Shown in pieces: positions 13,522-58,077 of a DNA stretch of 64,000 nucleotides. Within the stretch, counting starts at the first letter, position 1. Each line of letters opens with the position of its first letter. The stretch comes from an uncultured Flavobacteriaceae bacterium (GTDB taxonomy: Bacteria > Bacteroidota > Bacteroidia > AKYH767-A > OLB10): assembly GCA_964432885.1 (NCBI GenBank), contig CAYSPG010000012.1, positions 25,220-89,219 of the forward strand. The letters run 5' to 3'. The notes under the pieces were generated by a model, which worked only from the letters and a program-made list of their open reading frames with translations, had not been told where the DNA came from and searched no databases. Made by a program: the position numbers and the translations under genes.

Positions 13522-14678
13522 TAGTTTTTTATAGGAGCTATTTTAGTTTTGGCAAATGCTGATTTAACCAATTCAACCAAAATCCAAACCCATGCAATAA
13601 TGGATGGCAAAACTTTTAAGCGATACGGCTTAATAAATTCTTCGCGTACAAATCGCGGAAACAAATCGGTTGACGAAAGTGAAGTAAGAATAAAAGCAGC
13701 AATTAAAAACCACATTACATTTTTATTTTTATAGGACAAGGAAAAATAAATTGCCATACCGGAAATTGCAATAATAAAAGTTGGCGACTCGGCTTTGTGA
13801 TTAAATATTACACACCATATTAAAAACAAAGCAAGATATGCAAGTTTTGTTTCGTAAACGGAATAAATATTTTTGTTTAACAGCGGCAGAAACAGCGAAA
13901 GCAATCCTAAAAAAAGAAAAACAGTATTGCTTAATTGAACTCCTGACATGGTTTGCATAAAAGTTTGAAATGAATAATTCAACTCATGCGATGCATCCGT
14001 CTTTAACAAATCATACCAACTTACATACTGAAAAAACAAACTGTCAATAGAAGTGAATAAAAGTGGCAGCAATAACAAAATCAAACACGAAACAAAAAAA
14101 TATAATAATGGTTTCCAGAATTTTTTTGTGTAAAACAAAAATGAAATGCAAAACAACACCGGAAATACTTTTATAAACGTTGCAATTGCTAATATAGATG
14201 CTGCTTTAAAATAATTTTGATTTTCAAGCAAAACAAATGTCCAGATTATTAAACCGGCAACCATAGGATTGCTTTGCGAATTTTGAATAGATGTGATTAA
14301 CTCAATTAAAATAAAAAGAAAAACAAAAACTCTTCTTTCGTCAGTAATATTTAAATTTTTTATTCCTGAAAATAAAAGCAATGCATTAAGCAAATTCCAC
14401 AATGGGTAGCCGATGCCATTGGGTAAAAAAGAAAATGGCGCCATTAAAACAGCAAATGTGGGGCTGTACTTAAACAAATCGAAATGTTGTGCCGGATGAA
14501 GGTCGTATAAAATTATTCCATCTACTAAGTTTTTGAAAGAGGTTGTAAAAATTAAATAGTTATTAAAATGTTCGGGGCCTAACAAATAACGATGTACCGA
14601 AGCAATTAATGTTATAGCAACATAAACCCAAAATAAAAAATTAAGGTTTGAGAGTTTAGCAAAAATCTTTTGCATCAT
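13521..14678 (-). CDS. Polytopic membrane protein, glycosyltransferase family 87 / DUF2029-like
   Basis: 385 aa with roughly 10 predicted TM helices. Its stop overlaps the uvrC start by 1 nt and its start overlaps the GT2 gene by 4 nt. The family call rests on architecture only. Confidence 0.4.
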   Translation of the reverse strand: MMQKIFAKLSNLNFLFWVYVAITLIASVHRYLLGPEHFNNYLIFTTSFKNLVDGIILYDLHPAQHFDLFKYSPTFAVLMAPFSFLPNGIGYPLWNLLNALLLFSGIKNLNITDERRVFVFLFILIELITSIQNSQSNPMVAGLIIWTFVLLENQNYFKAASILAIATFIKVFPVLFCISFLFYTKKFWKPLLYFFVSCLILLLLPLLFTSIDSLFFQYVSWYDLLKTDASHELNYSFQTFMQTMSGVQLSNTVFLFLGLLSLFLPLLNKNIYSVYETKLAYLALFLIWCVIFNHKAESPTFIIAISGMAIYFSLSYKNKNVMWFLIAAFILTSLSSTDLFPRFVREEFIKPYRLKVLPSIIAWVWILVELVKSAFAKTKIAPIKN

Positions 14679-15436
14679 TTTTTATGCTGACGGTGTAGCT
14701 TTTGCAGTTTTAAATATTTTAAATACGTTTCGTATGCGGCAATGCGGCAAATGGTAAAGCCCGATATACCGTCTAAAAATCCGAGCAGGATAAAATAATT
14801 GCGGATAAACTTTGCCACCGTCTTTACAAAAATATGCAGTGCACTGGTGTTTCTATTTTTTTTAAAAAGTTCGTTGGCTGCAATGGTCGAAAATTTATCG
14901 GCTTGCCGGTAATGCTCCTCAACAGTGTAATAGGTGTAATGCAAAATATCGCCCAATAAAAATTTTACGGTTGAGTTTTCATACATCATTATTTTATCGT
15001 GCGGATTTTGGCCGCCAAATTTTCCTTTGCTTTTGTTTATCAATCGTATTTTTTTATCGGGATACCAGCCACTATAATAAATCCACTTACCGCAGTAATT
15101 GCTAAGGCGGTTCATTTCATAGGCATCAAAATCAAAATGTTGTTTTACTGCAAGAATAGATTTTTTTAGTTCATCCGAAAGAGCTTCATCTGCATCTAAG
15201 GATAATATGTATGTGTTTTGACAAAGACTAATAGCTAAATTTTTTTGTTCGATATGGCCAAGAAATTTTTGTTTGTTAAATTTTACACCATACTCATTGC
15301 ATATCTTTTCGGTTGCATCGGTTGAAAGCGAATCAACCACAACAATTTCATCGGCAATATCTTTTACACTTTCAAGACATCGCCTGATGTTTTTTTCTTC
15401 GTTAAAAGTAATTATGCAAACGGATAGTTTTTCCAT
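14675..15436 (-). CDS. Family 2 glycosyltransferase
   Basis: N-terminal GT-A motif CIITFNEEKNI...VVVDSLSTD..LSLDADE (DxD). Confidence 0.8.
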   Translation of the reverse strand: MEKLSVCIITFNEEKNIRRCLESVKDIADEIVVVDSLSTDATEKICNEYGVKFNKQKFLGHIEQKNLAISLCQNTYILSLDADEALSDELKKSILAVKQHFDFDAYEMNRLSNYCGKWIYYSGWYPDKKIRLINKSKGKFGGQNPHDKIMMYENSTVKFLLGDILHYTYYTVEEHYRQADKFSTIAANELFKKNRNTSALHIFVKTVAKFIRNYFILLGFLDGISGFTICRIAAYETYLKYLKLQKLHRQHKK

Positions 15437-21141: not shown

Positions 21142-24100
21142 ATGAAAAAAATAATTTCCTACTTAGCAATCCTGTTTTTTACCTCTGTAACATGCTTGGC
21201 TCAACAAAACCGTAATGCAATTACATCCATTAACTGGACGGAACCAATAACTGTTTTTAACAATCAAAAACTACATTTCACAGGTTCTTTTTACAAAAGT
21301 AACGATGGATTGCCCTGGTTTTCGTCAAGCATAGATATTCCTGATGACGGATTTAATTACTCTGTAAAAATCACAAACCCTGGTTTTTCACCATTATCTG
21401 AGTCTAATCTTATAAGCGATAATTCTTACCTTGAACCCTACATTAAAGTAACCTCTCAAATTTCATATCATAAAAAACAGGCTTCCCTATATTATGAATT
21501 TGTGCCGCTTATAAAAAACACAACAACAGGCCTTATTGAAAAGCTTGTTTCATATAAAATAGAATTGGTAAAGGAAAATGATAGGCGCAAAGCTAATGCA
21601 GCAAGGGTTTATGCTACTTCCTCTGTTTTATCAGCAGGCGATTGGTATAAGATTGGTGTTACCACTGAGGGCTTATATAAAATGACCTATGCCTTTTTAA
21701 AGTTTTATTTAAAAATGGATATTGATAACAGTTCGCCTGCCGATTTTAGATTATTTGGTAACGGTGGAGGAATGGTTCCGCAACTTAATTCGATTAGCAG
21801 AATTGATGATTTGGCAGAAAATGCAATTTATGTGTATGATGGAGGAGTTCTAGGAAAATTTGATTCGCCTGACTATGTTTTATTTTATGGCCAATCGCCA
21901 ACCAAGTGGGCCTTTAATGCTAACAGCTTAAAATATAAACATACAAACCACTTGTATTGCGACACTACGTTTTACTTTGCTACCGTTAGCCCCGTTGGAA
22001 GCGGTTTACCAAAACGAATAGCACAAAAAGCTTCTCTCTCCCAATCACCCACTTTTAATGTTAATACATTTGATGATTACCGGTTTCATGAACTTGATTT
22101 AAGAAACTTTGTAAAATCAGGTCGCGAGTTTTATGGCGAGTCGTTTGATATAACTCCAACTCAAACTTTTTCTTTTTCGTTTCCTAATATTACAACCGAC
22201 TCTGTTTATATTGTTTCTGCATTTGCTTCGCACTCGCCTGGTGTTACCAGCAACCTTAACGTTACTGCAAACGGACAAGCCTTGTATTCCGAATCCTTTT
22301 ACACAGGCCCTGCCTACAATGATGATTTTGCTGTTGAAAAAATTAAATCGCTGGCTATTTATCCGTCATCAAGCAACATAGATATTTCTTACTCATTTAA
22401 TGCTGCTTCAACCGTTTCGTCAGGCTTTTTAAACTATATTGAAATTAATGCAAGAAGAAATTTAATCTGGAATCAAAGTCAGGGAAGTGACCAATTCTTT
22501 TTTCGCGATTCAAAGTCTATTGGTTCAGGCAACATTGTTCAGTTTAATTTGTCTTCTCCCCCATCCAATCTTAAAATATGGAATATTACTGACCCAACAA
22601 ATGTTTATGAACAACTTAACAATGGACAAAGCGGAGTTTTTGTTGCCAATGCCGATAGCTTAAATCAATACGTTGCATTTAGCGGAAGCAATTATTTTAC
22701 ACCTTCCATATCAGGAAAAATCAGCAATCAAAATTTACATGCGCTATCACAGGTTGATATGCTCATTATTACGCATCCATTATTTGAAACGCAAGCAAAC
22801 AGGCTTGCTGATTTTCATCGCTCACACGACAATCTTTCTGTTCATGTTGTAAATGCACCTTTAATCTATAATGAGTATTCGTCAGGTGCTGTTGATGTAA
22901 GCGGGATAAGAGATTTTGTAAAAATGTTTTATGATCGGGCGCAATCACCTCAGCAATTGCCCAAATATCTTTTGATGTTTGGCGATGGATCGTACGATAA
23001 TAAATTTCGCAGGTCAAACAATACCAATTTTTTACCTGTATATGAATCGGCCAATTCGGTTTCATGGATTCAATCGTATGTTACTGATGACTTTTATGCA
23101 TTGATGGATGATAACGAAGGCAACTGCGAAAACAGTGAAAAAATTGACATTGGAGTTGGCAGGTTGGTAGTGCAAAATAACCAGGAAGCCAAAACTGTTG
23201 TTGACAAAATCATCTCTTATTCATTGCCCACCTCATCAACCGGCACGCTTTGTTCGGCTGATAATTCGAGCCTGGGCGACTGGCGAAATGTGCTTTGCTT
23301 TATTGCCGATGACGAAGACAATAATTTACATCTTAATCAATCAGACAGATTAGCTGACTATATGTTTAATGCAAACCGCAGTTATAATATTGATAAAATT
23401 TACATTGATGCTTTTAAACAGGTGGTTACCCCTGCAGGTCAAACCTATCCTGATGTAAACGATGCAATAAGCAAACGAATTGCCAAAGGAGCGTTACTTG
23501 TAAACTATGTGGGCCATGGCGGAGAGGTTGGCTGGGCGCAAGAAGGAATTCTTTATAATGATATGATTAACTCATGGACAAACATTAACCGATTGCCTGT
23601 ATTTATTACAGCAACATGTGAATTCAGCCGTTGGGACGACCCGGTACGAACTTCATCGGGTGAAAAAATATTGCTTAACCCTAATGGTGGCGGAATTGCA
23701 CTTTACTCTACCACGCGGCTTGTTTATGCTTCGCAAAACGAACTTGTAGATTGCGTACTTGTACGCAACATGTTTAATCCTGACAATGCTGCCCTTCGGC
23801 TTGGCGATTTGTACGTAATTACCAAAACAAGTCCGTGGAATCTTAATCAAAACACACGCAACTTTAGCCTGCTTGGCGACCCTGCTGTAAAAATAAATTA
23901 TCCCAATCACAAAATTGAAACAACCACTATTAACTCTCACCCTGTTATTCCTCTGGCTGATACCTTAAGCGCATTAAGCAAGGTTACCATTTCAGGAATT
24001 GTAAAAGACAATAACGGGCAAAAACTTACTTCGTTTAACGGATATCTTTATCCAACCGTATATGATAAAGCTGTAAATACTTCAACACTTGGCAACGATG

Positions 24101-24987
24101 GCTCCAACCTTATCAAGTCCTTTATGCTTCAAAAAAATGTTTTATACAAAGGCAAAGCATCTGTTACCAATGGCGACTGGTCGTTTACATTTATAGTTCC
24201 TAAAGATATTTCGTACCAGTTTGGACAAGGCAAGCTTAGCTTTTATGGCGAAAACGGAGAAACCGATGCAGCCGGTTTTTATGACAGCCTTATTATTGGC
24301 GGCTCATCAAACATTGTTATTAACGATGTGGACGGCCCTCAGATTAACCTTTATATGAACGATGATAAATTTGTTTTTGGCGGAACAACAAATGATGAAC
24401 CAAGCATTTATGCAGTAGTTGTTGACTCAACTGGAATAAACACTGTTGGCAATGGTGTTGGGCACGATATTACAGCAATACTCGACAGCAAAACGCAACC
24501 AGTATATGTACTTAACGATTATTATCAGGCAGACCTTGACAGTTACACCAGTGGCAAAATTGTTTACCCCCTTTCAAAATTACCTGATGGCCGTCATTCG
24601 CTCAAAGTAAAAGTGTGGGATATATTAAATAACTCAAACGAATCGTACACCGAATTTGTGGTTGCTTCTTCTTCTTCGATGGCACTCGACCATGTACTTA
24701 ATTATCCCAATCCGTTTACCACGCACACTACATTTTCTTTTGAGCACAACAAATGTTGTCAGTATTTAGATGCACAAATTCAAATTTATACAGTATCCGG
24801 AAGGTTAATAAAAACGCTTTATAAAAACATTTATAACACCGGAACCCGCAGTGATGATTTTGAATGGGACGGTCGTGATGACTTTGGCAACAGCATTGGT
24901 AAAGGTGTTTACATTTACCGTGTAAAAATTAGTTCGCCCGATGGATTATCGGCTTCAAAAACCGAAAAACTTGTAATCCTTAAATAG
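21142..24987 (+). CDS. porU: T9SS C-terminal signal peptidase / sortase PorU (C25 gingipain-like)
   Basis: 1281 aa; signal peptide; gingipain-type peptidase region (VDMLIITHPLF...ADFHRSH...YLLMFGDGSYD); adjacent to porV as in other Bacteroidota. Confidence 0.85.
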   Translation: MKKIISYLAILFFTSVTCLAQQNRNAITSINWTEPITVFNNQKLHFTGSFYKSNDGLPWFSSSIDIPDDGFNYSVKITNPGFSPLSESNLISDNSYLEPYIKVTSQISYHKKQASLYYEFVPLIKNTTTGLIEKLVSYKIELVKENDRRKANAARVYATSSVLSAGDWYKIGVTTEGLYKMTYAFLKFYLKMDIDNSSPADFRLFGNGGGMVPQLNSISRIDDLAENAIYVYDGGVLGKFDSPDYVLFYGQSPTKWAFNANSLKYKHTNHLYCDTTFYFATVSPVGSGLPKRIAQKASLSQSPTFNVNTFDDYRFHELDLRNFVKSGREFYGESFDITPTQTFSFSFPNITTDSVYIVSAFASHSPGVTSNLNVTANGQALYSESFYTGPAYNDDFAVEKIKSLAIYPSSSNIDISYSFNAASTVSSGFLNYIEINARRNLIWNQSQGSDQFFFRDSKSIGSGNIVQFNLSSPPSNLKIWNITDPTNVYEQLNNGQSGVFVANADSLNQYVAFSGSNYFTPSISGKISNQNLHALSQVDMLIITHPLFETQANRLADFHRSHDNLSVHVVNAPLIYNEYSSGAVDVSGIRDFVKMFYDRAQSPQQLPKYLLMFGDGSYDNKFRRSNNTNFLPVYESANSVSWIQSYVTDDFYALMDDNEGNCENSEKIDIGVGRLVVQNNQEAKTVVDKIISYSLPTSSTGTLCSADNSSLGDWRNVLCFIADDEDNNLHLNQSDRLADYMFNANRSYNIDKIYIDAFKQVVTPAGQTYPDVNDAISKRIAKGALLVNYVGHGGEVGWAQEGILYNDMINSWTNINRLPVFITATCEFSRWDDPVRTSSGEKILLNPNGGGIALYSTTRLVYASQNELVDCVLVRNMFNPDNAALRLGDLYVITKTSPWNLNQNTRNFSLLGDPAVKINYPNHKIETTTINSHPVIPLADTLSALSKVTISGIVKDNNGQKLTSFNGYLYPTVYDKAVNTSTLGNDGSNLIKSFMLQKNVLYKGKASVTNGDWSFTFIVPKDISYQFGQGKLSFYGENGETDAAGFYDSLIIGGSSNIVINDVDGPQINLYMNDDKFVFGGTTNDEPSIYAVVVDSTGINTVGNGVGHDITAILDSKTQPVYVLNDYYQADLDSYTSGKIVYPLSKLPDGRHSLKVKVWDILNNSNESYTEFVVASSSSMALDHVLNYPNPFTTHTTFSFEHNKCCQYLDAQIQIYTVSGRLIKTLYKNIYNTGTRSDDFEWDGRDDFGNSIGKGVYIYRVKISSPDGLSASKTEKLVILK

Positions 24988-25089
24988 CAACCTTTTTTTA
25001 TTTATATCGTTATATTTGTCGGCTCTTATTCCGCATTAACAATAAAAAGAACCAACTTACGTTTTAGCACTTTCTAAACTTACATTTTA

Positions 25090-26310
25090 ATGAAAAATAA
25101 AATTTCAAAAGCAATTGTTTTTTCGCTTGCGTTAATCATTGCTGTTTCGCCTAAGGCATTTTCGCAGCAAAGCACGGATAAAAGCAACTTGCTTGGCCAG
25201 ATAAATACAATTACTACGGCTGTTCCATTTTTAATGATTTCGCCTGACGCACGTGCCGGTGGCATGGGCGATGCAGGAGTTGCTTCATCTGCCGATGCTA
25301 ACAGCATTCATTGGAATCCATCAAAACTTGCTTTTGTTGACAAAAGTTTTGGTGTAGGAATATCTTACACCCCCTGGCTCAGAAAATTAGTTCCTGATAT
25401 TAATCTTGCTTATGTAGGCGGATATTATAAATTAAAAGGAGGTCAGCAAACACTTGGCGCTTCGTTGCGTTATTTTTCATTGGGTAATATTCAGTTTACC
25501 AATGAATCGGGCGATAACATTGGCGAGTACAACCCAAACGAATATTCATTTGATGTTGCCTATGCGCGTAAGTTGGGCGAAGATTTTGCGGGTGGTATTG
25601 CTCTGCGATACATCCACTCAAACCTAACTGGTGGAATTGGTGTTGGCGGCAACACAACCAAGGCAGGCAACTCAGTGGCTGCCGATATTTCAGTTATGTA
25701 TAAAAAAGAAATTGAACTTGGTGGCAAAGATGCCGACTTTGGTTTAGGCTTAGCAATTACAAACATTGGTTCTAAAATTACTTACTCTGAATCGGGTACC
25801 AAAGATTTTATCCCAATTAATTTACGACTTGGTCCATCGTTAAAAATTAAACTTAACGACTATAACGAACTTACTATTATAGCCGACATCAACAAACTTC
25901 TTGTACCTACTCCTCCTTATTATTCTGATTCGATTGAAGATGGTGAACAATTAATATTAGCCGGAAAAGATCCGGATGTGGGTGTAGCACAAGGAATATT
26001 TCAATCGTTTGGCGATGCACCGGGTGGTGGTAAAGAAGAGTTGCGCGAAATAAATTATTGTGGTGGATTGGAATATTGGTACGACAAACAATTTGCTTTT
26101 CGTGCCGGTTATTTTTACGAACACAAAACAAAAGGGAACCGTAAGTATTTTACACTGGGCATAGGCGCACGTTTTAATGTATTTGGATTAGATGTTGCAT
26201 ACCTTATCCCTACAGAACAGCGCAACCCGTTAGAAAATACTTTGCGCATTTCATTGTCCTTTAACTTCGACTCGCTTAAAGGCGGTGGAGACAGCAACAA
26301 CGATGAATAA
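25090..26310 (+). CDS. porV: T9SS outer-membrane shuttle/porin PorV (LptO)
   Basis: 406 aa; signal peptide; conserved N-terminus TAVPFLMISPDARAGGMGDAGVA; FadL-like beta-barrel. Confidence 0.85.
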   Translation: MKNKISKAIVFSLALIIAVSPKAFSQQSTDKSNLLGQINTITTAVPFLMISPDARAGGMGDAGVASSADANSIHWNPSKLAFVDKSFGVGISYTPWLRKLVPDINLAYVGGYYKLKGGQQTLGASLRYFSLGNIQFTNESGDNIGEYNPNEYSFDVAYARKLGEDFAGGIALRYIHSNLTGGIGVGGNTTKAGNSVAADISVMYKKEIELGGKDADFGLGLAITNIGSKITYSESGTKDFIPINLRLGPSLKIKLNDYNELTIIADINKLLVPTPPYYSDSIEDGEQLILAGKDPDVGVAQGIFQSFGDAPGGGKEELREINYCGGLEYWYDKQFAFRAGYFYEHKTKGNRKYFTLGIGARFNVFGLDVAYLIPTEQRNPLENTLRISLSFNFDSLKGGGDSNNDE

Positions 26311-26322
26311 TTTTTTCAGCGT

Positions 26323-26802
26323 TTGAAATTTCGTATCGGTTTTGGTTTTGATGTGCACCAGCTACATGCTGGTATTCCGTTTTTTTTGGGGGGGATAAAA
26401 ATTGATCATTCTAAAGGAGCCAAGGGCCACTCGGATGCCGATGTAATTATACATGCCATGTGTGATGCTCTTTTAGGAGCCGCAAATCTGGGTGATATCG
26501 GAAAACATTTTCCTGATACATCAGAAAAATTTAAAGGCATTGATTCTAAAATATTACTGTCCGAAGTAAACAAATTGCTCAGGTCAAATAATTTTTCAAT
26601 TGGCAATATTGATATAACGCTGGTTTTAGAAAAACCCAAAATCAAAGACTACATTGCCCAAATGCAAACTACACTTGCCAGCGTGCTGCAAGTTTCAGCA
26701 GACGATATTTCGATAAAAGCAACCACCAATGAAAAAATGGGATTTATTGGCCGCGAAGAAGGTGTGGCCGCTTATGCGGTAGCGTTGGTTTTCAAAAATT
26801 AA
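26323..26802 (+). CDS. ispF: 2-C-methyl-D-erythritol 2,4-cyclodiphosphate synthase
   Basis: FRIGFGFDVHQL...GHSDADV...H metal-binding motifs. Confidence 0.9.
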   Translation: MKFRIGFGFDVHQLHAGIPFFLGGIKIDHSKGAKGHSDADVIIHAMCDALLGAANLGDIGKHFPDTSEKFKGIDSKILLSEVNKLLRSNNFSIGNIDITLVLEKPKIKDYIAQMQTTLASVLQVSADDISIKATTNEKMGFIGREEGVAAYAVALVFKN

Positions 26803-26824: not shown

Positions 26825-27217
26825 TTAAAACATTTCGTCAAAATCTTTTGCCTGGTAGGTAAAGTTACGCTCGGTATAATAGGTGCTACCACTTGATTTT
26901 TTTAATTGCAGGGAATCTGTTTTTTTAAACACCTTGCTAATCAGCGAAAGCGGAAAAAGAAACAAATAAAAAATTGCCCCTAGCAACACTTTTGACATAA
27001 TGCCCCCCATAATGTGCGCAATTTTCATCCACAACCAGTGTATTTTTTCTGACAGGTAATTTGAGAATAATCCTATTGCACAAATAAGTATTGATACAGG
27101 CACAAGCCATTCTGTTCCGTTTAAAGGGGAAAAATTTTTACGCTGTGTAAAATAAAATATTACCAACAGGCCAAGTGTTATGGCCACTATTGTTTCAAGA
27201 ACTTTGTTTCGTTGCAT
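26825..27217 (-). CDS. SxtJ-like small membrane protein
   Basis: 130 aa with 3-4 TM helices, last gene of a carbamoyltransferase operon. The family call is from architecture and context. Confidence 0.55.
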   Translation of the reverse strand: MQRNKVLETIVAITLGLLVIFYFTQRKNFSPLNGTEWLVPVSILICAIGLFSNYLSEKIHWLWMKIAHIMGGIMSKVLLGAIFYLFLFPLSLISKVFKKTDSLQLKKSSGSTYYTERNFTYQAKDFDEMF

Positions 27218-27299
27218 AAAAAATGGTTTACAGTTAATGATTTATATAAGCAAAGTATAAGCCTGCATTTTGCACTTGCAAGTTTATACAATGGATATA

Positions 27300-27449
27300 T
27301 TAAAACAATGTATAAATAAATGGCGCTAAAGCAGAGCCTCCGCCAACAACAAGCAGTATGCCAAGCAATAACAAAACAATAATTAGTGGAGCAAGCCAGA
27401 ATTTTTTTCGCTGGCCCATAAATTTTAGCAGGTCTTTTAAAAAATCCAT
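27300..27449 (-). CDS. Small (49 aa) single-TM protein, DUF5989 / SxtK-like; below the size cutoff of the ORF track
   Basis: MDFLKDLLKFMGQRKKFWLAPLIIVLLLLGILLVVGGGSALAPFIYTLF, read from ATG at 27449; lies between the carbamoyltransferase and the SxtJ-like gene. Confidence 0.5.
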   Translation of the reverse strand: MDFLKDLLKFMGQRKKFWLAPLIIVLLLLGILLVVGGGSALAPFIYTLF

Positions 27450-27502
27450 TTTTGATTTATTGAGTTTATGAAACCCCGGTTTTTATCGGGAATATTTATT
27501 GT

Positions 27503-29365
27503 TTAATCAAGTACAAATTCCTTTTTCCAATCGCCCACATCTTTAAACTCGGGCTGGTCGGTTTTAGCAAACAAGTAATTATTTACAACCAAATAATCCA
27601 TTTCAGTTCGCATAAAGCACCGGTACGAATCTTCGGGAGTGCACACTATTGGCTCGCCACGAACATTAAAGCTTGTATTTACCACAACACCATAGCCTGT
27701 AAGTTTTTTAAACTCATTAATCAATGTCCAGTATTTGGGATTGGTTTCTTTATGTACGGTTTGTATGCGTGCGCTAAAATCCAAATGCGTAATGCTTTGC
27801 ATATCGCTTCGCGGTGTGTAAAGTCTTTCCATCAATGGCAAATCAAAATAATTTGCTGGCAATGGCTTTTGTCTTTCCTTCTTCACATCGGCAACTATAA
27901 GCATGTAAGGCGATGTGGCATCATGGTCAAATAAATTTGAACATTCTTCGGCCATAACCGAAGGGGCAAATGGTCTGAAACTTTCGCGGTACTTAATTTT
28001 AAGATTTAATTTTTTTTGCATTTCGGTGTTGCGTGCATCACCCAATATGCTTCGCCCGCCAAGTGCTCGTGGACCAAATTCCATACGGCCCTGATGCCAG
28101 CCAATTACATTTCCATCGGCAATTAGTTTAGCAACCTTTGCTGCAAGTTCATCAAAATTTTGGTAATAATTGTAAACAGCTTTCTTTTTTCGTGCCATCA
28201 GTTCCACTTCCATATCGCTGTTTTCTGGCCCCAAATAAGAGCCACTCATTTCGTCCATTGCCCCACTCAATTTTCTTTCGTTACCAAAATAAATATAGTG
28301 TGCAGCTTGTGCAGCTCCCAAGGCGCCACCGGCATCACCTGCAGCAGGTTGAATAAAAATGTTTTTGAATATTTTTTTCCGATATAACTTTCCGTTTGCA
28401 ACACAATTTAGTGCAACACCACCTGCCATGCACAAATTATCACTACCCGTTAACCGCTTAGCCTCTTCGGCCATTTTATAAACCACATCTTCGGTAACCA
28501 TTTGTATGGCCAATCCTAAATCGCAATGCTGCTGTTCAAGATTTGATTCGCCTTCGCGAACAGCAAAGCCAAATAACTCCTTCCACTTGCTATCATTGGC
28601 CATGCGCAAGCCGGCAGCGTAATTAAAATATTCCTGATTAAGCCAAATTGAGCCATCGGCTTTTATATCAATAAGCTTATTGCAAATTATATCGTAATAC
28701 TTTTTTACATTCTCTGAGTTGGGATTTCCATAAGGTGCAAGTCCCATAAGTTTGTATTCGCCTGAGTTAACTTTAAAACCAAGATAATAGGTAAATGCTG
28801 AATAAAGCAATCCAAGAGAATGTGGAAAATGCAACTCTTTTATATTGGTAATTTTATTGCCTTTGCCATGACAAATACTTGCTGTTGCCCACTCCCCTAC
28901 TCCATCAATTGTAAGTATAGCAGCTTCCTGGTAAGGCGATGGGTAAAAAGCACTGGCGGCATGAGAAAGGTGGTGTTCAGGAAATAAAAGTTTTAATTTT
29001 TTTCCATCGTATTTTGAAATCTTTTCCAGTTCCTCCCTAATCAATCGTTTCAAAAACATTTTTTCCTTTAACCAAACAGGTATGGCCATTGAAAAGGATT
29101 GTATTCCCTTAGGGGCAAAGCCATAATAAGTTTCAAGCAACCGCTCAAATTTTAAAAGTGGCTTGTCATAAAAAACCACCGCATCTAACTCATCAATGGT
29201 AAGGCCAGCAAAATCAAGGCAATACTTGGTTGCACTGGCAGGAAAACCCGGGTCATGTTTTTTACGTGTAAACCGCTCTTCCTGTGCTGCCGCAATAATT
29301 TTTCCGTCTTGTAAAACTGCCGCTGCCGAATCGTGATAAAATGCTGATATGCCAAGTATATTCAA
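27503..29365 (-). CDS. Carbamoyltransferase (NodU/CmcH/SxtI family)
   Basis: 620 aa; N-terminal MNILGISAFYHDSAAAVL (Kae1/YgjD-like fold) plus a C-terminal carbamoyltransferase domain. Confidence 0.9.
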   Translation of the reverse strand: MNILGISAFYHDSAAAVLQDGKIIAAAQEERFTRKKHDPGFPASATKYCLDFAGLTIDELDAVVFYDKPLLKFERLLETYYGFAPKGIQSFSMAIPVWLKEKMFLKRLIREELEKISKYDGKKLKLLFPEHHLSHAASAFYPSPYQEAAILTIDGVGEWATASICHGKGNKITNIKELHFPHSLGLLYSAFTYYLGFKVNSGEYKLMGLAPYGNPNSENVKKYYDIICNKLIDIKADGSIWLNQEYFNYAAGLRMANDSKWKELFGFAVREGESNLEQQHCDLGLAIQMVTEDVVYKMAEEAKRLTGSDNLCMAGGVALNCVANGKLYRKKIFKNIFIQPAAGDAGGALGAAQAAHYIYFGNERKLSGAMDEMSGSYLGPENSDMEVELMARKKKAVYNYYQNFDELAAKVAKLIADGNVIGWHQGRMEFGPRALGGRSILGDARNTEMQKKLNLKIKYRESFRPFAPSVMAEECSNLFDHDATSPYMLIVADVKKERQKPLPANYFDLPLMERLYTPRSDMQSITHLDFSARIQTVHKETNPKYWTLINEFKKLTGYGVVVNTSFNVRGEPIVCTPEDSYRCFMRTEMDYLVVNNYLFAKTDQPEFKDVGDWKKEFVLD

Positions 29366-29524
29366 AGCTTATTTTATTTAAAAGTCGGCCAAAAGTAAGG
29401 AAATTGAAGATGTAAAAAGTCTGTTTGCTGTTTTCGGTTTTCGGTTTTAAATGCAAATCCAAACATTCTTCTTTGACCATATTATACTGGAGCTAATCTG
29501 TAATTTATTTAATGCCTCCATTAA

Positions 29525-30415
29525 CTATTTGGCCTTGGGTTTATAATTGATAAGATAAATGCCCGCAATAATTACCATCAGTGCAAAAAGATAAAACAGA
29601 TTAAACGTTTCGCCATCATGCAAACCCCACAGCACTGCAACAAACGGAATAAGATATGTAACCGAAGAAGCATACAATGCCGAAGACACTTTTATAAGCT
29701 GGTTAAAAATTACGGTTGACAATGCCGTGCCAAACACAGCCAGTATAATCACACAAACAAACGATGGAATAGCACCATCAACTGTTGACAGGCGTTGCAC
29801 AAAGTCGGTGGTAAATAAATAAATGCCCGAAGGAATACCCACGGCCACTAGCACTGCTCCCGAAAGCAAAATAGAATCAATTGTATTTAATTTGTTGCGC
29901 AAAATATTTACACTGCATGCGTAACAAATGGTGGCTATCAAAACATAAATGCCTTTCCACGGCTCGGCACTTTTTTCATCATCGGCACTCAGGTAAATTA
30001 AAAACGCGGCACCTGCCAATCCAAGAAACACACCGGCCACCTGTCTTGTTTTAAACTGTGTTTTAAAAAAAATAAAGCCTACCACAAGTGTAAATACTGA
30101 TGTAAGAGAGTTTAACATGCCCGCCATGCTGCTGCTAATTCCTGTTTCGGCATGGGTAAAAAGATAAGCCGGAATTCCATTGCCTAGCATACCTGCCCAA
30201 AAAACATATTTGTATTTTTCTTTTGGTATGGATTTTAATTTTGAAAACACAAACGGAAACAACACAATAAATGAGACAAGCATACGCAAAGCAGCTACCT
30301 GGTTGGGAGAAAAAACTTCAATACCGCGCTTCATCAGTATAAATGAACTGCCCCATATAACTGCAAGCAATGCAAGATAAATCCATTTTAAAATTCTATT
30401 TTTTGCGATGGCCAT
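29525..30415 (-). CDS. DMT-superfamily (EamA) transporter
   Basis: 10 TM helices in two EamA repeats; start taken at MAIAKNR to avoid a 120-nt overlap with the helicase gene. Confidence 0.8.
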   Translation of the reverse strand: MAIAKNRILKWIYLALLAVIWGSSFILMKRGIEVFSPNQVAALRMLVSFIVLFPFVFSKLKSIPKEKYKYVFWAGMLGNGIPAYLFTHAETGISSSMAGMLNSLTSVFTLVVGFIFFKTQFKTRQVAGVFLGLAGAAFLIYLSADDEKSAEPWKGIYVLIATICYACSVNILRNKLNTIDSILLSGAVLVAVGIPSGIYLFTTDFVQRLSTVDGAIPSFVCVIILAVFGTALSTVIFNQLIKVSSALYASSVTYLIPFVAVLWGLHDGETFNLFYLFALMVIIAGIYLINYKPKAK

Positions 30416-31670
30416 CTTTATTGCGGTTAAATTTTTTTTCGTGAAAAGCTCCTTTAAAATCGGGATTGTCTTTGCGCTTTTGCCTGTCAATTTCCATGGC
30501 TTGTTCCTGCTGCTCGGCAAATGTTGTTTTTTCTATTGCAATTTCAGCAGGCAATTCTTTTACAGGAATTTTTAATCCAATAAGTTTTTGAATTTTTTTT
30601 ATGTGCCATTCATCGGCCGGTGTGCAAAACGTTATGCAGGTACCGGTATTAAATGCGCGGGCTGTGCGGCCTGTGCGGTGCACATAATCTTCGTACACAA
30701 TCGGAACATCAAAATTTATTACATGCGAAACTGCCGATACATCAATGCCGCGTGCAGTAACATCGGTAGTTATCAAAATGGTAATGGCGCTTTCGCGAAA
30801 AGTGTTTAACGTGTTGGTGCGTGTTTGCTGTGCTTTATCGCCATGTAAAATATTTACTCCGCTTTCTTCAAACTCAAATTTTAAATTTTCGAAAACAGCA
30901 TTGGCAATTTTTTTTGATTTACAAAACACAATTACTTTTTTAAAAACCTCTTTTTGATTTAGCAGGTGCCTGAGAAAATTTATTTTGGTACCAAAGTTTG
31001 GTGTTTTATAAAGTTCTTGTTCAACTGTTGCCACTGTTTTTATTTCAGGAACAATGTTTATCACAATTGGGAACTCCATAAAGTCATCAGCAATTTTTTT
31101 TACCCTATCCGAAAATGTTGCCGAAAACAAAATGTTTTGCCGCTTGCGCGGAAGCACTTCAAGCAGTTTATGCAATTGTGGTGTAAATCCAAAATCCATC
31201 AGCCGCTCGGCTTCGTCAAGTACAAAGTGTTTTACTTTTTTTAAGATTAAAAAATTAGACAGGTACAGTTCCATTAATTGTGCCGGAGTACCTACTACGA
31301 CATCACAGCCGTCTGATAATTTTTTTTTCTGGTCGGTAAATCCTTTGCCGCCATAAACAGCAACTATTCTTACATCCGTATTTTTTCCCAACTGGTTAAA
31401 TACCGATGTTATTTGCAAAACAAGTTCACGGGTAGGAGCCACCACAACAAGGCGAGGCTCGTTTTCCTGAGCGTAATTTAAAATGCGCAACAGCGGCAAT
31501 ACATAGGCGGCAGTTTTACCAGTGCCTGTCTGTGCAATTCCAATTATATGCTGTCCACCAAGTATAATGGGAATGGCTTTGCTTTGAATCTCAGTAGGTG
31601 TAACAAATCCTGCATCGGCAACAGCAGTAAGCAACTGCTTGTTTAAGCGCAATTCTGAAAACGATGTCAT
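30396..31670 (-). CDS. DEAD-box ATP-dependent RNA helicase
   Basis: Q-motif (FVTPTEIQ), Walker A AQTGTGKT, DEAD box (VLDEAE), SAT, and HRTGRTAR motif VI. Confidence 0.92.
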   Translation of the reverse strand: MTSFSELRLNKQLLTAVADAGFVTPTEIQSKAIPIILGGQHIIGIAQTGTGKTAAYVLPLLRILNYAQENEPRLVVVAPTRELVLQITSVFNQLGKNTDVRIVAVYGGKGFTDQKKKLSDGCDVVVGTPAQLMELYLSNFLILKKVKHFVLDEAERLMDFGFTPQLHKLLEVLPRKRQNILFSATFSDRVKKIADDFMEFPIVINIVPEIKTVATVEQELYKTPNFGTKINFLRHLLNQKEVFKKVIVFCKSKKIANAVFENLKFEFEESGVNILHGDKAQQTRTNTLNTFRESAITILITTDVTARGIDVSAVSHVINFDVPIVYEDYVHRTGRTARAFNTGTCITFCTPADEWHIKKIQKLIGLKIPVKELPAEIAIEKTTFAEQQEQAMEIDRQKRKDNPDFKGAFHEKKFNRNKDGHRKK

Positions 31671-35626: not shown

Positions 35627-36700
35627 TTATACACCAAAAAGCACCTTAACTTTTTTGTTCAGCGGCTCTTCAATGCATTTAAAAAGCAAAACCGAAATGA
35701 TGGTTGAAGTAAACAATTCAATAAAAAAATAATTTCCAATATACTTTACAAACACAGTGTGCAAAATACCAAGATGAATAAGATAAAAGCAATAACTGCT
35801 TTTGCCCAGCAACTGAAACAGTTTTGTTGAAAGCATTTTTTCAACTGCTGTGCTTTCGGTAATTAATCCATAAATAAGCATTACGATGAAAACAGGCAGC
35901 ACAAAATTGTTAAGTGCAATTCCCCATCCTGTATGCAGCCCGTATTTTTCATCCACTCTTAAAAGAGAAAGCACTATTGTAATAAGCAAAACAGATAGTG
36001 CGCCCAAATATGTAAAAGAGAAAATTGTTTTTTTTGTTTTTCCGTTTTCTTTTAGCCAAAGTGCAAGTTGAATGCCTGCAAAAAATTCAAAGCACCTTCC
36101 AAAAAAAGTGTAAAGCAAAGTGAAACGGTACGAACCAAAAAATCCATCTGCAGTTTTTATATCATTAAAATAAACGGTAAGTAAAATTCCAATAGTTAAA
36201 ATGGCAAGAGGCATCATCCATAAATTTATTTTTCGGTGCAGTAAAAAAATAACCGGAGCGCATACATAAAAAACTTCTTCAACCGTTAACGACCACCCTT
36301 GCGCAATACCCGTTTGAAAGTACTGCTCAAAAAAGCCACGCAAAAAAGTTATGTTGAGCAAATAAATTTTTAATCCTTCGTTATAAAATAAAAAGGCAAC
36401 GGTGGTTATAATAAAATATACCGGGTAAATTCGCGCAATGCGGTTTACCATATATTTTTTAAACCAGTTTTTTTCAGAAGCAAACAAATGGTAATAGCGA
36501 TGGCAGATTAAAAAACCACTGAGCACAAAAAAAATGGTAACACCCACATGCCACTCCTGCAACACATCATAAACAAAAACCGGCAAACTAAGCGGAGTAA
36601 AGTGGTGTACAAAAACCAACAAAGCTGCCACATAACGCAGGCCGGTAAGAGCAGGAAAAATGTTTGCTGTTTTCAGTTCAATGAATTTAACTTTTGCCAA
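35627..36700 (-). CDS. Acyltransferase family 3 (OafA/YrhL-like) membrane protein
   Basis: 357 aa, 10 TM helices, N-terminal LRYVAALLVFVHHF motif. Confidence 0.85.
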   Translation of the reverse strand: MAKVKFIELKTANIFPALTGLRYVAALLVFVHHFTPLSLPVFVYDVLQEWHVGVTIFFVLSGFLICHRYYHLFASEKNWFKKYMVNRIARIYPVYFIITTVAFLFYNEGLKIYLLNITFLRGFFEQYFQTGIAQGWSLTVEEVFYVCAPVIFLLHRKINLWMMPLAILTIGILLTVYFNDIKTADGFFGSYRFTLLYTFFGRCFEFFAGIQLALWLKENGKTKKTIFSFTYLGALSVLLITIVLSLLRVDEKYGLHTGWGIALNNFVLPVFIVMLIYGLITESTAVEKMLSTKLFQLLGKSSYCFYLIHLGILHTVFVKYIGNYFFIELFTSTIISVLLFKCIEEPLNKKVKVLFGV

Positions 36701-36742
36701 AAGTAAAAGAATATAAAAACTGAATATGGAAAAAATCTCCCC

Positions 36743-37624
36743 CTATTTTCTTGCTTCTATGTACATGGTAACTTTGGGTGTTGTAAAATCAAAAAAAATC
36801 AGGTCACGCATTACAGGGCAAAAACTTTGCCCATAAGCCGAACGGTAAATTGTTTTAAATCCGGCTTTGGTAAGCATGGTAAAAATTTTTTTCTGGTTAA
36901 ACCAATTGATATGATTACCCGGATTTTGACGCTGTATTTCTATGCTGCAAAGAGAGGTGCAATAGTTCATAGCATCTTCAAACGACCTGGTGGCAAATAA
37001 ATCTTTAAGCTCCATATCGCTAATTCTTTTTACAGCACCATGCAATGGAATTTCAGAAGCCTGTGATGCAAAGTTTTCTAAAAAAACCTGTGCTGTTGTT
37101 TCCTGATTTAATGGTTTTCGAAGATTAACTCGTTTAAAATCTTTTTCAGAGCTATAATAGTCAATCCAATAAAAATAATCGCGATCGTTTTCTACGTATG
37201 CACGGTATTCAATATCAATATCAGGAGTTGCAATGCGAAAAAATCCTCCCGACTTTAGCATCCTGCAGGCTTCGTTAAAAAGATTTTGAACAGCTTCATC
37301 ATTAACATGCTCAATGGTATGGCTTGTATAAACCACCTCGGCACTGCCCGTTTCCACAGGTATAGGCTGACACGAAAACAAATCATAATTAATTCCGCCA
37401 AGGGTATTTTTTGTATTATCATTATACCATTCGCTAACAAAATCCACATTTGTCCAGCATGAATGATTAAATGCACCCGCGCCAACATTATAAAATCGTT
37501 TGTTGCGTACGCTGTCTTCTGAATAAATACGGTTATACATTTCTAAATTCTCATTTTTAACAGCCTTGCGTGAAATTTGCAATCCTGCCAAATCGAAAAT
37601 TTTTTTTAATGCATGTGTTATCAT
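36743..37624 (-). CDS. Hypothetical protein, probably a SAM-dependent (FkbM/class I-like) methyltransferase
   Basis: YNVGAGAFNH and LKSGGFFRIATPD motifs resemble MTase motifs I and post-I; sits in an operon with the acyltransferase-3 gene. Confidence 0.4.
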   Translation of the reverse strand: MITHALKKIFDLAGLQISRKAVKNENLEMYNRIYSEDSVRNKRFYNVGAGAFNHSCWTNVDFVSEWYNDNTKNTLGGINYDLFSCQPIPVETGSAEVVYTSHTIEHVNDEAVQNLFNEACRMLKSGGFFRIATPDIDIEYRAYVENDRDYFYWIDYYSSEKDFKRVNLRKPLNQETTAQVFLENFASQASEIPLHGAVKRISDMELKDLFATRSFEDAMNYCTSLCSIEIQRQNPGNHINWFNQKKIFTMLTKAGFKTIYRSAYGQSFCPVMRDLIFFDFTTPKVTMYIEARK

Positions 37625-43825: not shown

Positions 43826-43853
43826 AAATAACACATGGATATAAAAAAGTTTT

Positions 43854-43909
43854 GCGTTTAGTGTTTTAAGTTTAGGTTGGGCTAACACTAAACTTAAAAC
43901 ACTAAACGC
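43854..43909 (-). terminator. Very stable hairpin (22-bp perfect stem plus 3 further pairs) between two chaperone genes; terminator or attenuator
   Basis: GCGTTTAGTGTTTTAAGTTTAG-gttgggctaaca-CTAAACTTAAAACACTAAACGC; on the minus strand it is followed by AAAACTTTTTTAT. Confidence 0.55.
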
Positions 43910-43933
43910 AGAACTCAATAACTGCAACACGAA

Positions 43934-54340: not shown

Positions 54341-54365
54341 GTGAATAAAATAAGCATATAGCGTT

Positions 54366-56517: not shown

Positions 56518-56524
56518 ATAATTT

Positions 56525-58074: not shown

Positions 58075-58077
58075 AAA

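What the first reader, a model, noticed from the sequence alone, without database searches (positions are those of the whole stretch)
26825..29365. SxtI/SxtJ/SxtK-like operon (carbamoyltransferase, 49-aa DUF5989 protein, SxtJ-like membrane protein) with unknown substrate
The three minus-strand genes are tightly packed: the 620-aa NodU/CmcH-type carbamoyltransferase, a 49-aa single-TM protein missed by the ORF track (27300-27449), and a 130-aa 3-4 TM protein. The same three-gene arrangement accompanies the O-carbamoyltransferase of saxitoxin biosynthesis in cyanobacteria (sxtI-J-K). In a Bacteroidota chromosome there is no toxin pathway, so the carbamoylated molecule is unknown; a polysaccharide, lipid or nucleoside is possible. 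A perfect 10-bp palindrome ACTTGCAAGT sits between the two small genes (27268-27277).
Basis: partly seen in the sequence, partly recalled or inferred. Interest (0 to 1): 0.5.

Follow-up and report, generated by a model that had tools for sequence, protein, structure and literature searches.

The report
Carbamoyltransferase operon with DltX-like shuttle microprotein
The three genes are real and form a very widespread but uncharacterised module, and its 49-residue membrane protein ends in the same tyrosine "acyl-shuttle" motif that bacteria use to pass acyl groups across the membrane, which suggests (untested) that it carbamoylates a cell-envelope polymer.

Summary
On the minus strand lie a 620-aa TobZ/NodU-type carbamoyltransferase (CT, 27503-29365), a 49-aa DUF5989 protein (K, 27300-27449) and a 130-aa SxtJ-family membrane protein (J, 26825-27217). 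The palindrome is at 27274-27283, not 27268-27277, and is unremarkable.

The trio is a self-contained module. K and J sit beside CT in about 70 of 76 loci from at least 8 phyla. CT and K are about 66% identical across phyla; J is about 34%.

- Every K copy ends in F-[IV]-Y-x-x-F at its extreme C-terminus. This is the FXYXXF "acyl shuttle" motif of DltX and of bacterial MBOAT C-termini. K and DltX also share size, layout and a weak end-to-end profile match.
- At least 47 of 76 loci carry a membrane-anchored SGNH/GDSL enzyme in or beside the module. Some loci lie inside polysaccharide gene clusters.

Best reading (about 40%, inferred): a Dlt/PatAB-like relay in which CT activates carbamoyl, K carries it on tyrosine, and an SGNH enzyme places it on an envelope glycan. 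Weak points: there is no MBOAT-like conduit, no SGNH gene in this window, and no experiment. The trio itself has been known since the saxitoxin papers; I found no paper describing the motif link.

The parts
27503..29365 (-). Carbamoyltransferase (CT), 620 aa, TTG start. It has a Kae1-like N-terminal domain and a YrdC-like C-terminal domain. Motifs HHLSH (aa 131-135, nt 28961-28975) and GPRALGGRS (aa 431-439, nt 28049-28075) are retained. A 28-aa stretch (aa 497-524) is mostly unaligned to the NovN and TobZ chains.
   Evidence: Pfam N and C domains. PDB chains NovN, TobZ and GdmN match at E about 1e-83 with the motifs aligned. More than 8000 homologues, 73-80% identical within Bacteroidota, and 63-74% identical in the 80 genome loci from several phyla. 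Motif coordinates.
27300..27449 (-). K: a 49-aa DUF5989 membrane microprotein. It has a conserved basic N-terminal segment (MDFLKDL..RKKFWLxP), one hydrophobic helix, a GGGS hinge and a C-terminal FIYTLF (nt 27303-27320), which fits the FXYXXF 'acyl shuttle' motif.
   Evidence: PF19451 at 88.3 bits. F47, Y49 and F52 of the alignment are invariant in 71/71 copies. 127 of the 150 best-scoring representatives at 50% identity end in F.Y..F; the rest look like read-through artefacts. None of the 9736 other ORFs in the loci ends this way. The motif is defined in PMC12148441. hhalign against a DltX profile gives P=9e-5, and 0 of 150 segment-wise shuffles reach that score.
26825..27217 (-). J: a 130-aa SxtJ-family integral membrane protein with three predicted helices and a lysine-rich, disordered C-terminal tail. 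No conserved catalytic-type residue; only W63 and P89 are invariant.
   Evidence: PF19588 at 24.9 bits here, and 37/37 homologues match. Invariant columns. AlphaFold model with mean pLDDT 73.5. No structural relative in the PDB, best E=2.1.
29390..29397 (-). Possible Bacteroidota-type -7 promoter element TACTTTTG (fits TAnnTTTG), ending 24 nt upstream of the CT start codon.
   Evidence: Read directly from the sequence. The consensus is recalled from my own knowledge of Bacteroides promoters. This is inference only; the sigma-70 scan was not enriched.
27274..27283 (.). I judge it not to be a functional part of the module.
   Evidence: Located, with a second copy at 43721. The window holds 92 perfect 10-bp palindromes. 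The K-J spacer is only 0-15 bp in most related loci, so the palindrome cannot be conserved there.

Best explanation
The three genes form a self-contained, very widespread module for carbamoylating a component of the cell envelope, most likely a glycan, and I propose it works like the Dlt and PatA/PatB acyl relays. SHOWN: CT has the complete two-domain make-up of TobZ-type enzymes. From published work on TobZ, those enzymes make carbamoyl-AMP from carbamoyl phosphate and ATP and pass the carbamoyl group to a hydroxyl. SHOWN: K is a DltX-sized single-pass microprotein whose extreme C-terminus is an invariant F-[IV]-Y-x-x-F. SHOWN: CT and K are both about 66% identical across phyla, J is far less conserved, and a membrane-anchored SGNH/GDSL enzyme with its catalytic Ser and His intact is encoded in or next to the module in most related loci. 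INFERRED: the conserved basic N-terminus of K docks CT at the inner face of the membrane. The tyrosine in K's tail carries the carbamoyl group as an aryl carbamate. J is the membrane scaffold or conduit that replaces the MBOAT protein. An extracytoplasmic SGNH enzyme (encoded elsewhere in this genome, if at all) takes the carbamoyl group from that tyrosine and puts it on the final acceptor. On this view CT's direct substrate is the invariant K tail, which would explain why CT and K are so conserved while the SGNH partners and genomic contexts vary with the acceptor. How the carbamoyl group crosses the membrane is not explained.
For: Module integrity: K and J lie beside CT in about 70 of 76 loci from Bacteroidota, Balneolaceae, Sumerlaeota, Elusimicrobiota, Nitrospirota, Desulfobaccales, Omnitrophica and Pseudomonadota. 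It also occurs on Sinorhizobium, Ensifer and Leisingera plasmids. The flanking genes differ even between relatives 78-79% identical to this CT, so the trio moves as a unit. Motif: FxYxxF at the C-terminus in 71/71 copies and in 127 of the 150 best representatives, and in none of 9736 other ORFs. The same motif carries D-alanyl or acetyl groups on its Tyr in DltX and PatA (PMC12148441). B. thuringiensis DltX is 48 aa with the same layout and ends in FIYNEF (PMC5541007). A profile-profile alignment runs over almost the whole length, 27% identity, P=9e-5, score 23.6, against 9.7 +/- 2.4 (max 19.1) for segment-wise shuffles. SGNH partner: 47 of 76 loci by HMM, plus two more by eye (L067, L009), mostly adjacent to or inside the module. 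In the alignment of 50 partners, the block-I Gly and Ser are 96% and 94% conserved and the block-V His is 100% conserved. All carry N-terminal hydrophobic anchors and one subfamily is fused to TPR repeats. Conservation: median pairwise identity is 65.8% for CT, 67.3% for K and 33.6% for J. Glycan context: 27 of 76 loci have GT, epimerase, DegT, Wzz or UbiA-type neighbours. Ensifer has GDSL-J-K-CT-GT4...Wzx; Leisingera has the module next to Wzx; L088 has it between GT2/STELLO and GT87/GT2/PMT_2. Precedent from my own knowledge: HypF, a YrdC/Kae1-type carbamoyltransferase, carbamoylates the C-terminal Cys of HypE, and aryl carbamates readily carbamoylate serine hydrolases.
Against: There is no MBOAT- or AT3-like protein in the module. 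J has three helices and only two invariant residues (W63, P89), with no conserved His, Ser or Asp, so nothing obvious moves a carbamoyl group about 30 A from a cytoplasmic active site to a tyrosine that charge distribution places in the periplasm. No SGNH homologue is found in this 64-kb window or next to the trio in its closest relatives, and roughly a third of loci lack one nearby. Five loci have CT and J but no K in the fetched DNA. The Pfam DltX model does not hit K even at E<=10. The hhalign probability is only 59%, from a shallow DltX profile. No K-like chain is in the PDB. To my knowledge carbamoyl-tyrosine has never been observed. Everything here is computational.
Confidence: 0.4

Rival explanations
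1. Membrane-recruitment model. K and J only tether CT to the inner face of the membrane, so that CT directly O-carbamoylates a membrane-bound substrate there (a polyprenyl-phosphate-linked sugar or oligosaccharide, lipid A-core or another lipid) before it is flipped. The FxYxxF tail is a docking or assembly element, not a covalent carrier. The SGNH enzyme is an accessory esterase or decarbamoylase, as proposed for SxtL.
For: CT is a complete, apparently self-sufficient O-carbamoyltransferase. J has no catalytic-type conserved residue. The trio often occurs without an SGNH gene, as in this window. GT2, GT87 and PMT_2 neighbours in L088 point to polyprenyl-linked sugars. The saxitoxin literature assigns SxtL a decarbamoylating role, as a hypothesis. 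This model removes the membrane-crossing problem.
Against: A mere anchor does not need an invariant extreme C-terminal FxYxxF on the side of the membrane away from CT. It does not explain why this is exactly the covalent shuttle motif that is paired with SGNH enzymes. It does not explain the frequent SGNH partners predicted to face outward. From my own knowledge, carbamoyltransferases that act on cytoplasmic substrates (NodU, TobZ, the P. aeruginosa core enzyme) have no such partners.
Confidence: 0.3
2. Secondary-metabolite tailoring. As in saxitoxin biosynthesis, the trio carbamoylates a small soluble metabolite (toxin, antibiotic or nucleoside) and K and J couple this to export.
For: The family names come from the sxt cluster, where sxtI, sxtJ and sxtK are core genes. 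An EamA-type exporter gene lies immediately upstream.
Against: No biosynthetic genes flank the trio here. Neighbourhoods differ in close relatives, and the EamA gene is not conserved next to the trio. The family has 2758 representatives at 50% identity and spans many phyla at about 66% identity, which suits a housekeeping-type envelope function better than a rare natural product. The recurrent neighbours are glycan genes.
Confidence: 0.08
3. The similarity to DltX is convergent or coincidental. K and J have a role unrelated to group transfer (for example regulating or stabilising CT, or sensing), and the SGNH genes are neighbours for other reasons.
For: The Pfam DltX model does not detect K. 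The hhalign probability is only 59%. Short hydrophobic proteins align easily. Five loci lack K.
Against: The motif is invariant and strictly C-terminal across phyla. The alignment score exceeds all 150 architecture-preserving shuffles. Four independent similarities coincide: size, layout, motif and SGNH partner.
Confidence: 0.12

Closest known systems
SxtI / SxtJ / SxtK (and SxtL) of the cyanobacterial saxitoxin cluster
   Same: The same protein families: an O-carbamoyltransferase, an SxtJ-family membrane protein (PF19588) and a microprotein of about 50 aa (sxtK is 165 bp). A GDSL-type enzyme (SxtL) is listed next to SxtK in the gene tables, which mirrors the SGNH partner found in at least 47 of 76 loci here. 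In the sxt system too, the roles of J and K are only hypothesised.
   Different: There are no other sxt genes here. The host is a Bacteroidota bacterium, judged from its type IX secretion genes and nearest relatives. The order is CT-K-J rather than I-J-K as named. The likely target is an envelope polymer, not an alkaloid. I could not obtain SxtK or SxtL sequences, so their membership of DUF5989 and of these SGNH subfamilies is untested.
DltX-DltB-DltD (teichoic acid D-alanylation) and PatA/PatB-type MBOAT-SGNH acyl relays
   Same: A microprotein of about 48-49 aa with a basic N-terminus, one TM helix and a short tail ending in FXYXXF (FIYNEF in DltX, FIYTLF in K). There is an ATP-dependent cytoplasmic activating enzyme and a membrane-anchored SGNH partner. 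The profile alignment runs over almost the whole length.
   Different: There is no MBOAT protein and no carrier protein. The group would be carbamoyl, not acyl. The activating enzyme is a TobZ-type carbamoyltransferase, not an adenylating ligase. J (about 125 aa) replaces a protein predicted to have 12 membrane helices. The hosts are diderm bacteria. The Pfam DltX model does not recognise K.
TobZ, NovN and GdmN (structurally solved O-carbamoyltransferases)
   Same: The same two-domain architecture and catalytic motifs, E about 1e-83 over nearly the full length.
   Different: Only moderate similarity, about 280 bits against more than 1000 bits within its own clade. From my own knowledge those enzymes act alone on soluble antibiotics and have no K, J or SGNH partners. 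This clade has a stretch at aa 497-524 that is mostly unaligned to NovN and TobZ.
HypF-HypE (hydrogenase maturation)
   Same: From my own knowledge, not tested here: a YrdC/Kae1-type carbamoyltransferase transfers carbamoyl to a residue at the extreme C-terminal tail of a partner protein. This is a precedent for CT modifying K's tail.
   Different: The acceptor is a cysteine thiol on a soluble protein, and there is no membrane step. The family and the biological purpose are different.

Membership tests
NodU/CmcH/TobZ-type O-carbamoyltransferase | Both Pfam domains (Carbam_trans_N and Carbam_trans_C) present above their cut-offs | tested here: met
   318 and 243 bits against cut-offs of 24 and 27.
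NodU/CmcH/TobZ-type O-carbamoyltransferase | Catalytic motifs retained (HxxxH of the Kae1-like domain; GPRALGxRS of the YrdC-like domain) | tested here: met
   HHLSH at aa 131-135 and GPRALGGRS at aa 431-439 align to the same motifs in NovN and TobZ. The GPRALGRS site is cited for SxtI.
NodU/CmcH/TobZ-type O-carbamoyltransferase | Is the NodU orthologue itself (NCBIfam equivalog cut-off) | tested here: not met
   135.9 bits against a cut-off of 1000. It belongs to the superfamily but is not NodU.
DUF5989 (PF19451) | HMM score above the gathering cut-off over the full length of about 49 aa | tested here: met
   88.3 bits against 27, covering positions 1-49 of 49.
SxtJ family (PF19588) | HMM score above the gathering cut-off | tested here: met
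   24.9 bits against 24.4 for the window protein, which is marginal. All 37 homologues match at E<=0.01, best 4e-13. PGAP names a Leisingera homologue 'SxtJ family membrane protein'.
Saxitoxin (sxt) biosynthetic cluster | Other core sxt genes (sxtA, sxtG, sxtB, sxtD, sxtS, sxtU and others) present nearby | tested here: not met
   The neighbours are PorU, PorV, IspF, EamA, a DEAD-box helicase and TerC. The window gene map shows nothing sxt-like.
DltX-type acyl-shuttle microprotein | About 50 aa, with a basic N-terminus, a single TM helix and a short C-terminal tail | tested here: met
   Read from the sequence and the family alignment, compared with the published DltX layout. Topology is inferred from charge distribution only.
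DltX-type acyl-shuttle microprotein | Invariant FXYXXF hexapeptide at the extreme C-terminus | tested here: met
   71/71 copies and 127 of the 150 best representatives. The motif is defined.
DltX-type acyl-shuttle microprotein | Membership of Pfam DltX (PF12459) | tested here: not met
   No hit even at E<=10. Only a profile-profile similarity, P=9e-5 with 59% probability.
DltX-type acyl-shuttle microprotein | Covalent acyl-Tyr (here carbamoyl-Tyr) intermediate | not testable with these tools
   Needs mass spectrometry or radiolabelling.
MBOAT-SGNH / Dlt envelope acylation system | An MBOAT (or AT3) membrane acyltransferase in the system | tested here: not met
   No such gene recurs in the 76 loci. 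The only conserved membrane partner is the 3-helix J. The Acyl_transf_3 gene at 35627-36700 is 6 kb away and is not a conserved neighbour.
MBOAT-SGNH / Dlt envelope acylation system | A membrane-anchored SGNH partner encoded with the system | tested here: inconclusive
   Absent from this 64-kb window and from the closest relatives' loci. Present in at least 47 of 76 related loci, with the catalytic Ser and His conserved, and in S. meliloti and Ensifer.

The most novel reading that the evidence does not exclude
DUF5989 proteins are DltX-like carriers that hold a carbamoyl group on their C-terminal tyrosine. Together with a TobZ-type carbamoyltransferase, an SxtJ-family membrane protein and an outward-facing SGNH transferase, they would form a previously unrecognised, MBOAT-independent relay that carbamoylates envelope glycans in many diderm phyla. 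The same logic would then explain the long-unexplained SxtJ, SxtK and SxtL genes of saxitoxin biosynthesis.
Probability: 0.35. Interest if true: 0.85.

Novelty: new variant of a known kind. Interest (0 to 1): 0.62.

Why it matters
SxtJ and SxtK have been core saxitoxin genes of unknown function since the first sxt cluster papers, and a 2026 preprint still calls their role hypothetical. DUF5989 has no literature at all in the library I searched. The family is nevertheless large (2758 representatives at 50% identity) and is conserved at about 66% identity across phyla.

Linking its invariant C-terminus to the tyrosine shuttle motif, and to a recurrent SGNH partner, turns "unknown function" into specific experiments: a Tyr-to-Phe mutant, a +43 Da adduct, and SGNH-dependent transfer.

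If correct, three things follow:
- The acyl-tyrosine relay principle would extend from acyl groups to carbamoyl groups.
- The relay would be shown to work without an MBOAT or AT3 protein.
- A widespread, so far unseen O-carbamoylation of bacterial surface polymers would be predicted.

The module on S. meliloti 1021 pSymB offers a genetically tractable test system.

Tried and rejected
- **PDB sequence search with K:** no hit at E<=10, so no solved DltX-like chain could be compared.
- **Pfam scan of K at E<=10:** only DUF5989, not DltX.
- **Homologue search with B. thuringiensis DltX:** only 12 close relatives. I harvested Listeria, Niallia and S. aureus DltX from plasmid records instead.
- **Natural J-K or CT-K fusions among 150 K representatives:** none convincing. 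The longer proteins are upstream ORF extensions or read-through, with one probable lost-stop J-K join, P0276.
- **SGNH homologue in the window:** none. The single hit is to the TPR part only.
- **AlphaFold model of J plus Foldseek against the PDB:** three helices, mean pLDDT 73.5, no structural relative, best E=2.1. The topology of J could not be settled from charges.
- **Other conserved neighbours in loci without SGNH:** none.
- **The palindrome:** rejected as a feature.
- **Sigma-70 promoter and terminator scans:** not enriched over shuffles.
- **Literature:** nothing on DUF5989, and nothing linking carbamoyltransferases with SGNH, MBOAT or DltX. Nothing useful on the S. meliloti locus tags. 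Schultz et al. 2023 is not held, so I cannot exclude that its supplement mentions this family.
- **Cyanobacterial sxt loci:** I could not fetch them.
Full report
**1. The observation**

The three minus-strand ORFs are present exactly as described.

- **CT** (27503-29365, 620 aa, TTG start) carries both carbamoyltransferase domains, Carbam_trans_N at 1e-94 and Carbam_trans_C at 1.5e-72. It aligns over nearly its full length with the solved enzymes NovN, TobZ and GdmN at E about 1e-83. The HHLSH and GPRALGGRS motifs are retained.
- **K** (27300-27449, 49 aa) is a full-length DUF5989 protein, 88.3 bits against a cut-off of 27. A public gene caller left it out.
- **J** (26825-27217, 130 aa) passes the SxtJ family cut-off only marginally (24.9 against 24.4 bits). 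All 37 homologues I tested match that family, so the assignment is sound.

The palindrome is really at 27274-27283. It is one of 92 perfect 10-bp palindromes in the window, and I discard it. The gaps between the genes are 53 and 82 bp. A TACTTTTG element lies 24 nt upstream of the CT start and fits the Bacteroidota -7 consensus. That consensus is from my own knowledge, and the promoter is an inference.

**2. How conserved the arrangement is**

The enzyme has more than 8000 homologues and is 73-80% identical across Bacteroidota orders. A scan of one genome per species returned 80 loci, 63-74% identical. They come from Bacteroidota, Balneolaceae, Sumerlaeota, Elusimicrobiota, Nitrospirota, Desulfobaccales, Omnitrophica and Pseudomonadota.

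In about 70 of the 76 loci in which the enzyme's ORF is recovered complete, both K and J lie beside it on the same strand. The order is CT-K-J in most Bacteroidota and J-K-CT in most other phyla. Median pairwise identities are 65.8% for CT, 67.3% for K and 33.6% for J.

The flanking genes are not conserved, even in relatives 78-79% identical to this CT:
- PorP/SprF and PBP1C in one relative;
- GT2/STELLO and GT87/GT2/PMT_2 in another;
- PorV, IspF and EamA here.

So the trio behaves as a self-contained unit. It also answers the second: the enzyme forms its own clade, far from the enzymes with defined substrates.

**3. The C-terminus of K**

All 71 copies end in F-[IV]-Y-[TAS]-[LIV]-F, with both Phe and the Tyr invariant. 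Also invariant or nearly so are an RKK-x-WL-x-P segment before the hydrophobic helix, a mid-helix Gly, and a Gly-rich hinge followed by S-A-x-A-P.

A search of 1.84 billion representative proteins found 2758 family members at E<=0.001. Of the best 150, 127 end in F.Y..F. The others continue into unrelated sequence and look like read-through or assembly artefacts. None of the other 9736 ORFs of at least 30 aa in the loci ends this way.

FXYXXF at the extreme C-terminus is the published "acyl shuttle" motif. [quoted passage not shown] The group is then handed to the serine of an SGNH-family transferase, DltD or PatB (PMC12148441).

B. thuringiensis DltX is 48 aa. It has a short basic N-terminus, one hydrophobic helix and a 15-residue tail ending in FIYNEF (PMC5541007). 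K has the same size and layout.

I compared the K family with a small DltX profile (Bacillus, Listeria, Niallia, Staphylococcus). The profile-profile alignment runs over almost the whole length, with 27% identity, P=9e-5 and 59% probability. Its score of 23.6 exceeds all 150 controls in which DltX columns were shuffled within the N-terminal, membrane and C-terminal segments (mean 9.7, sd 2.4, max 19.1). The Pfam DltX model itself does not detect K. I therefore call this a strong resemblance and possible distant homology, not membership.

**4. A recurrent fourth gene**

Clustering all neighbours showed only one other recurrent family: GDSL/SGNH-type proteins of about 350-750 aa with an N-terminal hydrophobic anchor. 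They fall into three subfamilies, one of them fused to TPR repeats.

HMMs built from them find such a gene in 47 of 76 loci, usually within 200 bp of the module or between CT and K. Two more (L067, L009) were missed by my crude gene caller. The block-I Gly-x-Ser and the block-V His are conserved. Charge distribution puts the catalytic domain outside the cytoplasm in most cases, which is an inference.

The same four genes occur on well-annotated replicons:
- S. meliloti pSymB has SGNH, divergently transcribed, then J-K-CT, with K ending in FIYTLF. It lies about 7.5 kb from a polysaccharide operon.
- Ensifer canadensis has GDSL-J-K-CT-GT4...Wzx on one strand.
- Leisingera has "SxtJ family membrane protein" and "DUF5989 family protein" next to a Wzx flippase.

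Overall, 27 of 76 loci have glycan-biosynthesis neighbours.

In the saxitoxin gene tables a GDSL lipase gene (sxtL) is listed next to sxtK. The toxin cluster may therefore have borrowed the whole four-gene module. I could not test this because I could not fetch sxt sequences.

This window has no SGNH homologue, and neither do the loci of its closest relatives.

**5. Mechanism**

*Shown:*
- a complete ATP- and carbamoyl-phosphate-type carbamoyltransferase;
- a DltX-like microprotein with the shuttle motif;
- a poorly conserved three-helix membrane protein with no conserved catalytic-type residue (only W63 and P89 invariant);
- in most related loci, an outward-facing SGNH enzyme.

*Inferred:* the module is a relay that carbamoylates an envelope polymer after export. 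CT docks on K's conserved cytoplasmic N-terminus. The carbamoyl group is carried on K's tyrosine. J takes the place of the MBOAT protein. The SGNH enzyme delivers the group to the acceptor.

Three points favour this reading:
- It makes sense of a cytoplasmic activating enzyme, two small membrane proteins and an extracytoplasmic SGNH enzyme being inherited together.
- It explains why CT and K are so strongly and equally conserved while the SGNH partners and contexts vary. CT's direct substrate would be the invariant K tail.
- There are chemical and enzymatic precedents, from my own knowledge. HypF carbamoylates the C-terminal Cys of HypE, and aryl carbamates carbamoylate serine hydrolases.

**6. 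Weaknesses**

- The tyrosine is predicted to lie on the far side of the membrane from CT, and nothing in the module resembles the MBOAT tunnel.
- The SGNH gene is absent here and in about a third of loci.
- Five loci lack K.
- The homology statistics rest on short sequences.
- Nothing has been tested at the bench.

I put the relay model at about 0.4. A simpler model, in which K and J merely recruit CT to a membrane-bound substrate at the inner face, gets about 0.3. Coincidental resemblance gets about 0.12, and small-molecule tailoring about 0.08.

**7. Comparison with what is known, and novelty**

The trio of genes is not new. The sxt papers describe sxtJ and sxtK as short ORFs beside sxtI that are thought to act with it. 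Pfam and PGAP already name both families.

In the searchable literature I found no paper on DUF5989. I also found none that connects carbamoyltransferases with the tyrosine shuttle motif, SGNH partners, MBOATs or DltX. A 2026 preprint still treats SxtJ and SxtK as hypothetical helpers. I could not read Schultz et al. 2023.

I therefore rate the window's operon as a member of a known but uncharacterised module. My best reading of that module makes it a new variant of the acyl-tyrosine relay systems, with carbamoyl instead of acyl and no MBOAT.

**8. Verdict**

The palindrome is irrelevant. The finding becomes more interesting than first reported because the microprotein carries a recognisable mechanistic signature that is directly testable, most easily in S. 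meliloti 1021. Interest 0.62.

Noticed in passing
window 21142-26310 (+): Type IX secretion genes sit directly beside the operon: a 1281-aa Peptidase_C25 protein (PorU-like) and PorV (NCBIfam T9SS_OM_PorV, 504 bits), followed by ispF at 26323-26802. This identifies the host as Bacteroidota. It is not a conserved neighbour of the trio.
   Followed up: partly
window 13521-15436 (-): A GT87 (GT-C type) and GT2 glycosyltransferase pair lies about 12 kb from the trio. The same enzyme types (GT2, GT87, PMT_2) directly flank the trio in L088, which hints at a link to periplasmic glycosylation from polyprenyl-phosphate sugars.
   Followed up: partly
window 53198-59265 (+): A lipid- or polyketide-like cluster: a KAS III-like protein, an unknown 135-aa protein, a BtrH_N/DUF4872 protein, ABC transporter genes, an acyl carrier protein (57802-58074) and a KAS II-like synthase. 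It resembles clusters for specialised lipids or pigments.
   Followed up: no
window 35627-37624 (-): An Acyl_transf_3 (AT3) membrane acyltransferase sits next to a methyltransferase. It is a possible glycan O-acylation gene, about 6 kb from the trio and not conserved with it.
   Followed up: no
window 29525-30520 and 30396-31670 (-): The mechanical EamA ORF (331 aa, TTG start) overlaps the DEAD-box helicase ORF by 125 nt. A public gene call gives EamA 296 aa, so the true start is probably further downstream.
   Followed up: partly
L016, L040, L044, L048, L066: Five related loci have CT followed by J, but no DUF5989 ORF anywhere in the fetched DNA (tblastn negative). L040 still has the SGNH gene. 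These are either K-less variants or have K encoded elsewhere.
   Followed up: partly
L002 9935-12895: A 564-aa gene and a 375-aa gene are inserted between CT and K in a Saprospiraceae MAG, splitting the module by 3.1 kb. I did not run either through a family search.
   Followed up: no
L082/L083 (S. meliloti pSymB, about 483-487 kb): The model rhizobium S. meliloti 1021 carries the full four-gene module (SGNH, J, K, CT). It lies about 7.5 kb from an SDR/galE/glycosyltransferase/DUF995/GH26 polysaccharide operon. K is unannotated in most S. meliloti records.
   Followed up: partly
L019, L029, L068 (SGNH partner genes): The SGNH partners give weak NCBIfam hits to the Leptospira 'LA_2486' and 'LA_2490' SGNH/GDSL esterase families. 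Leptospira may carry a related module.
   Followed up: no
window 43721-43730: A second exact copy of ACTTGCAAGT. Two copies were found where 0.12 were expected for this exact 10-mer. It lies within the ORF at 43001-43930 and has no evident link to the operon.
   Followed up: no
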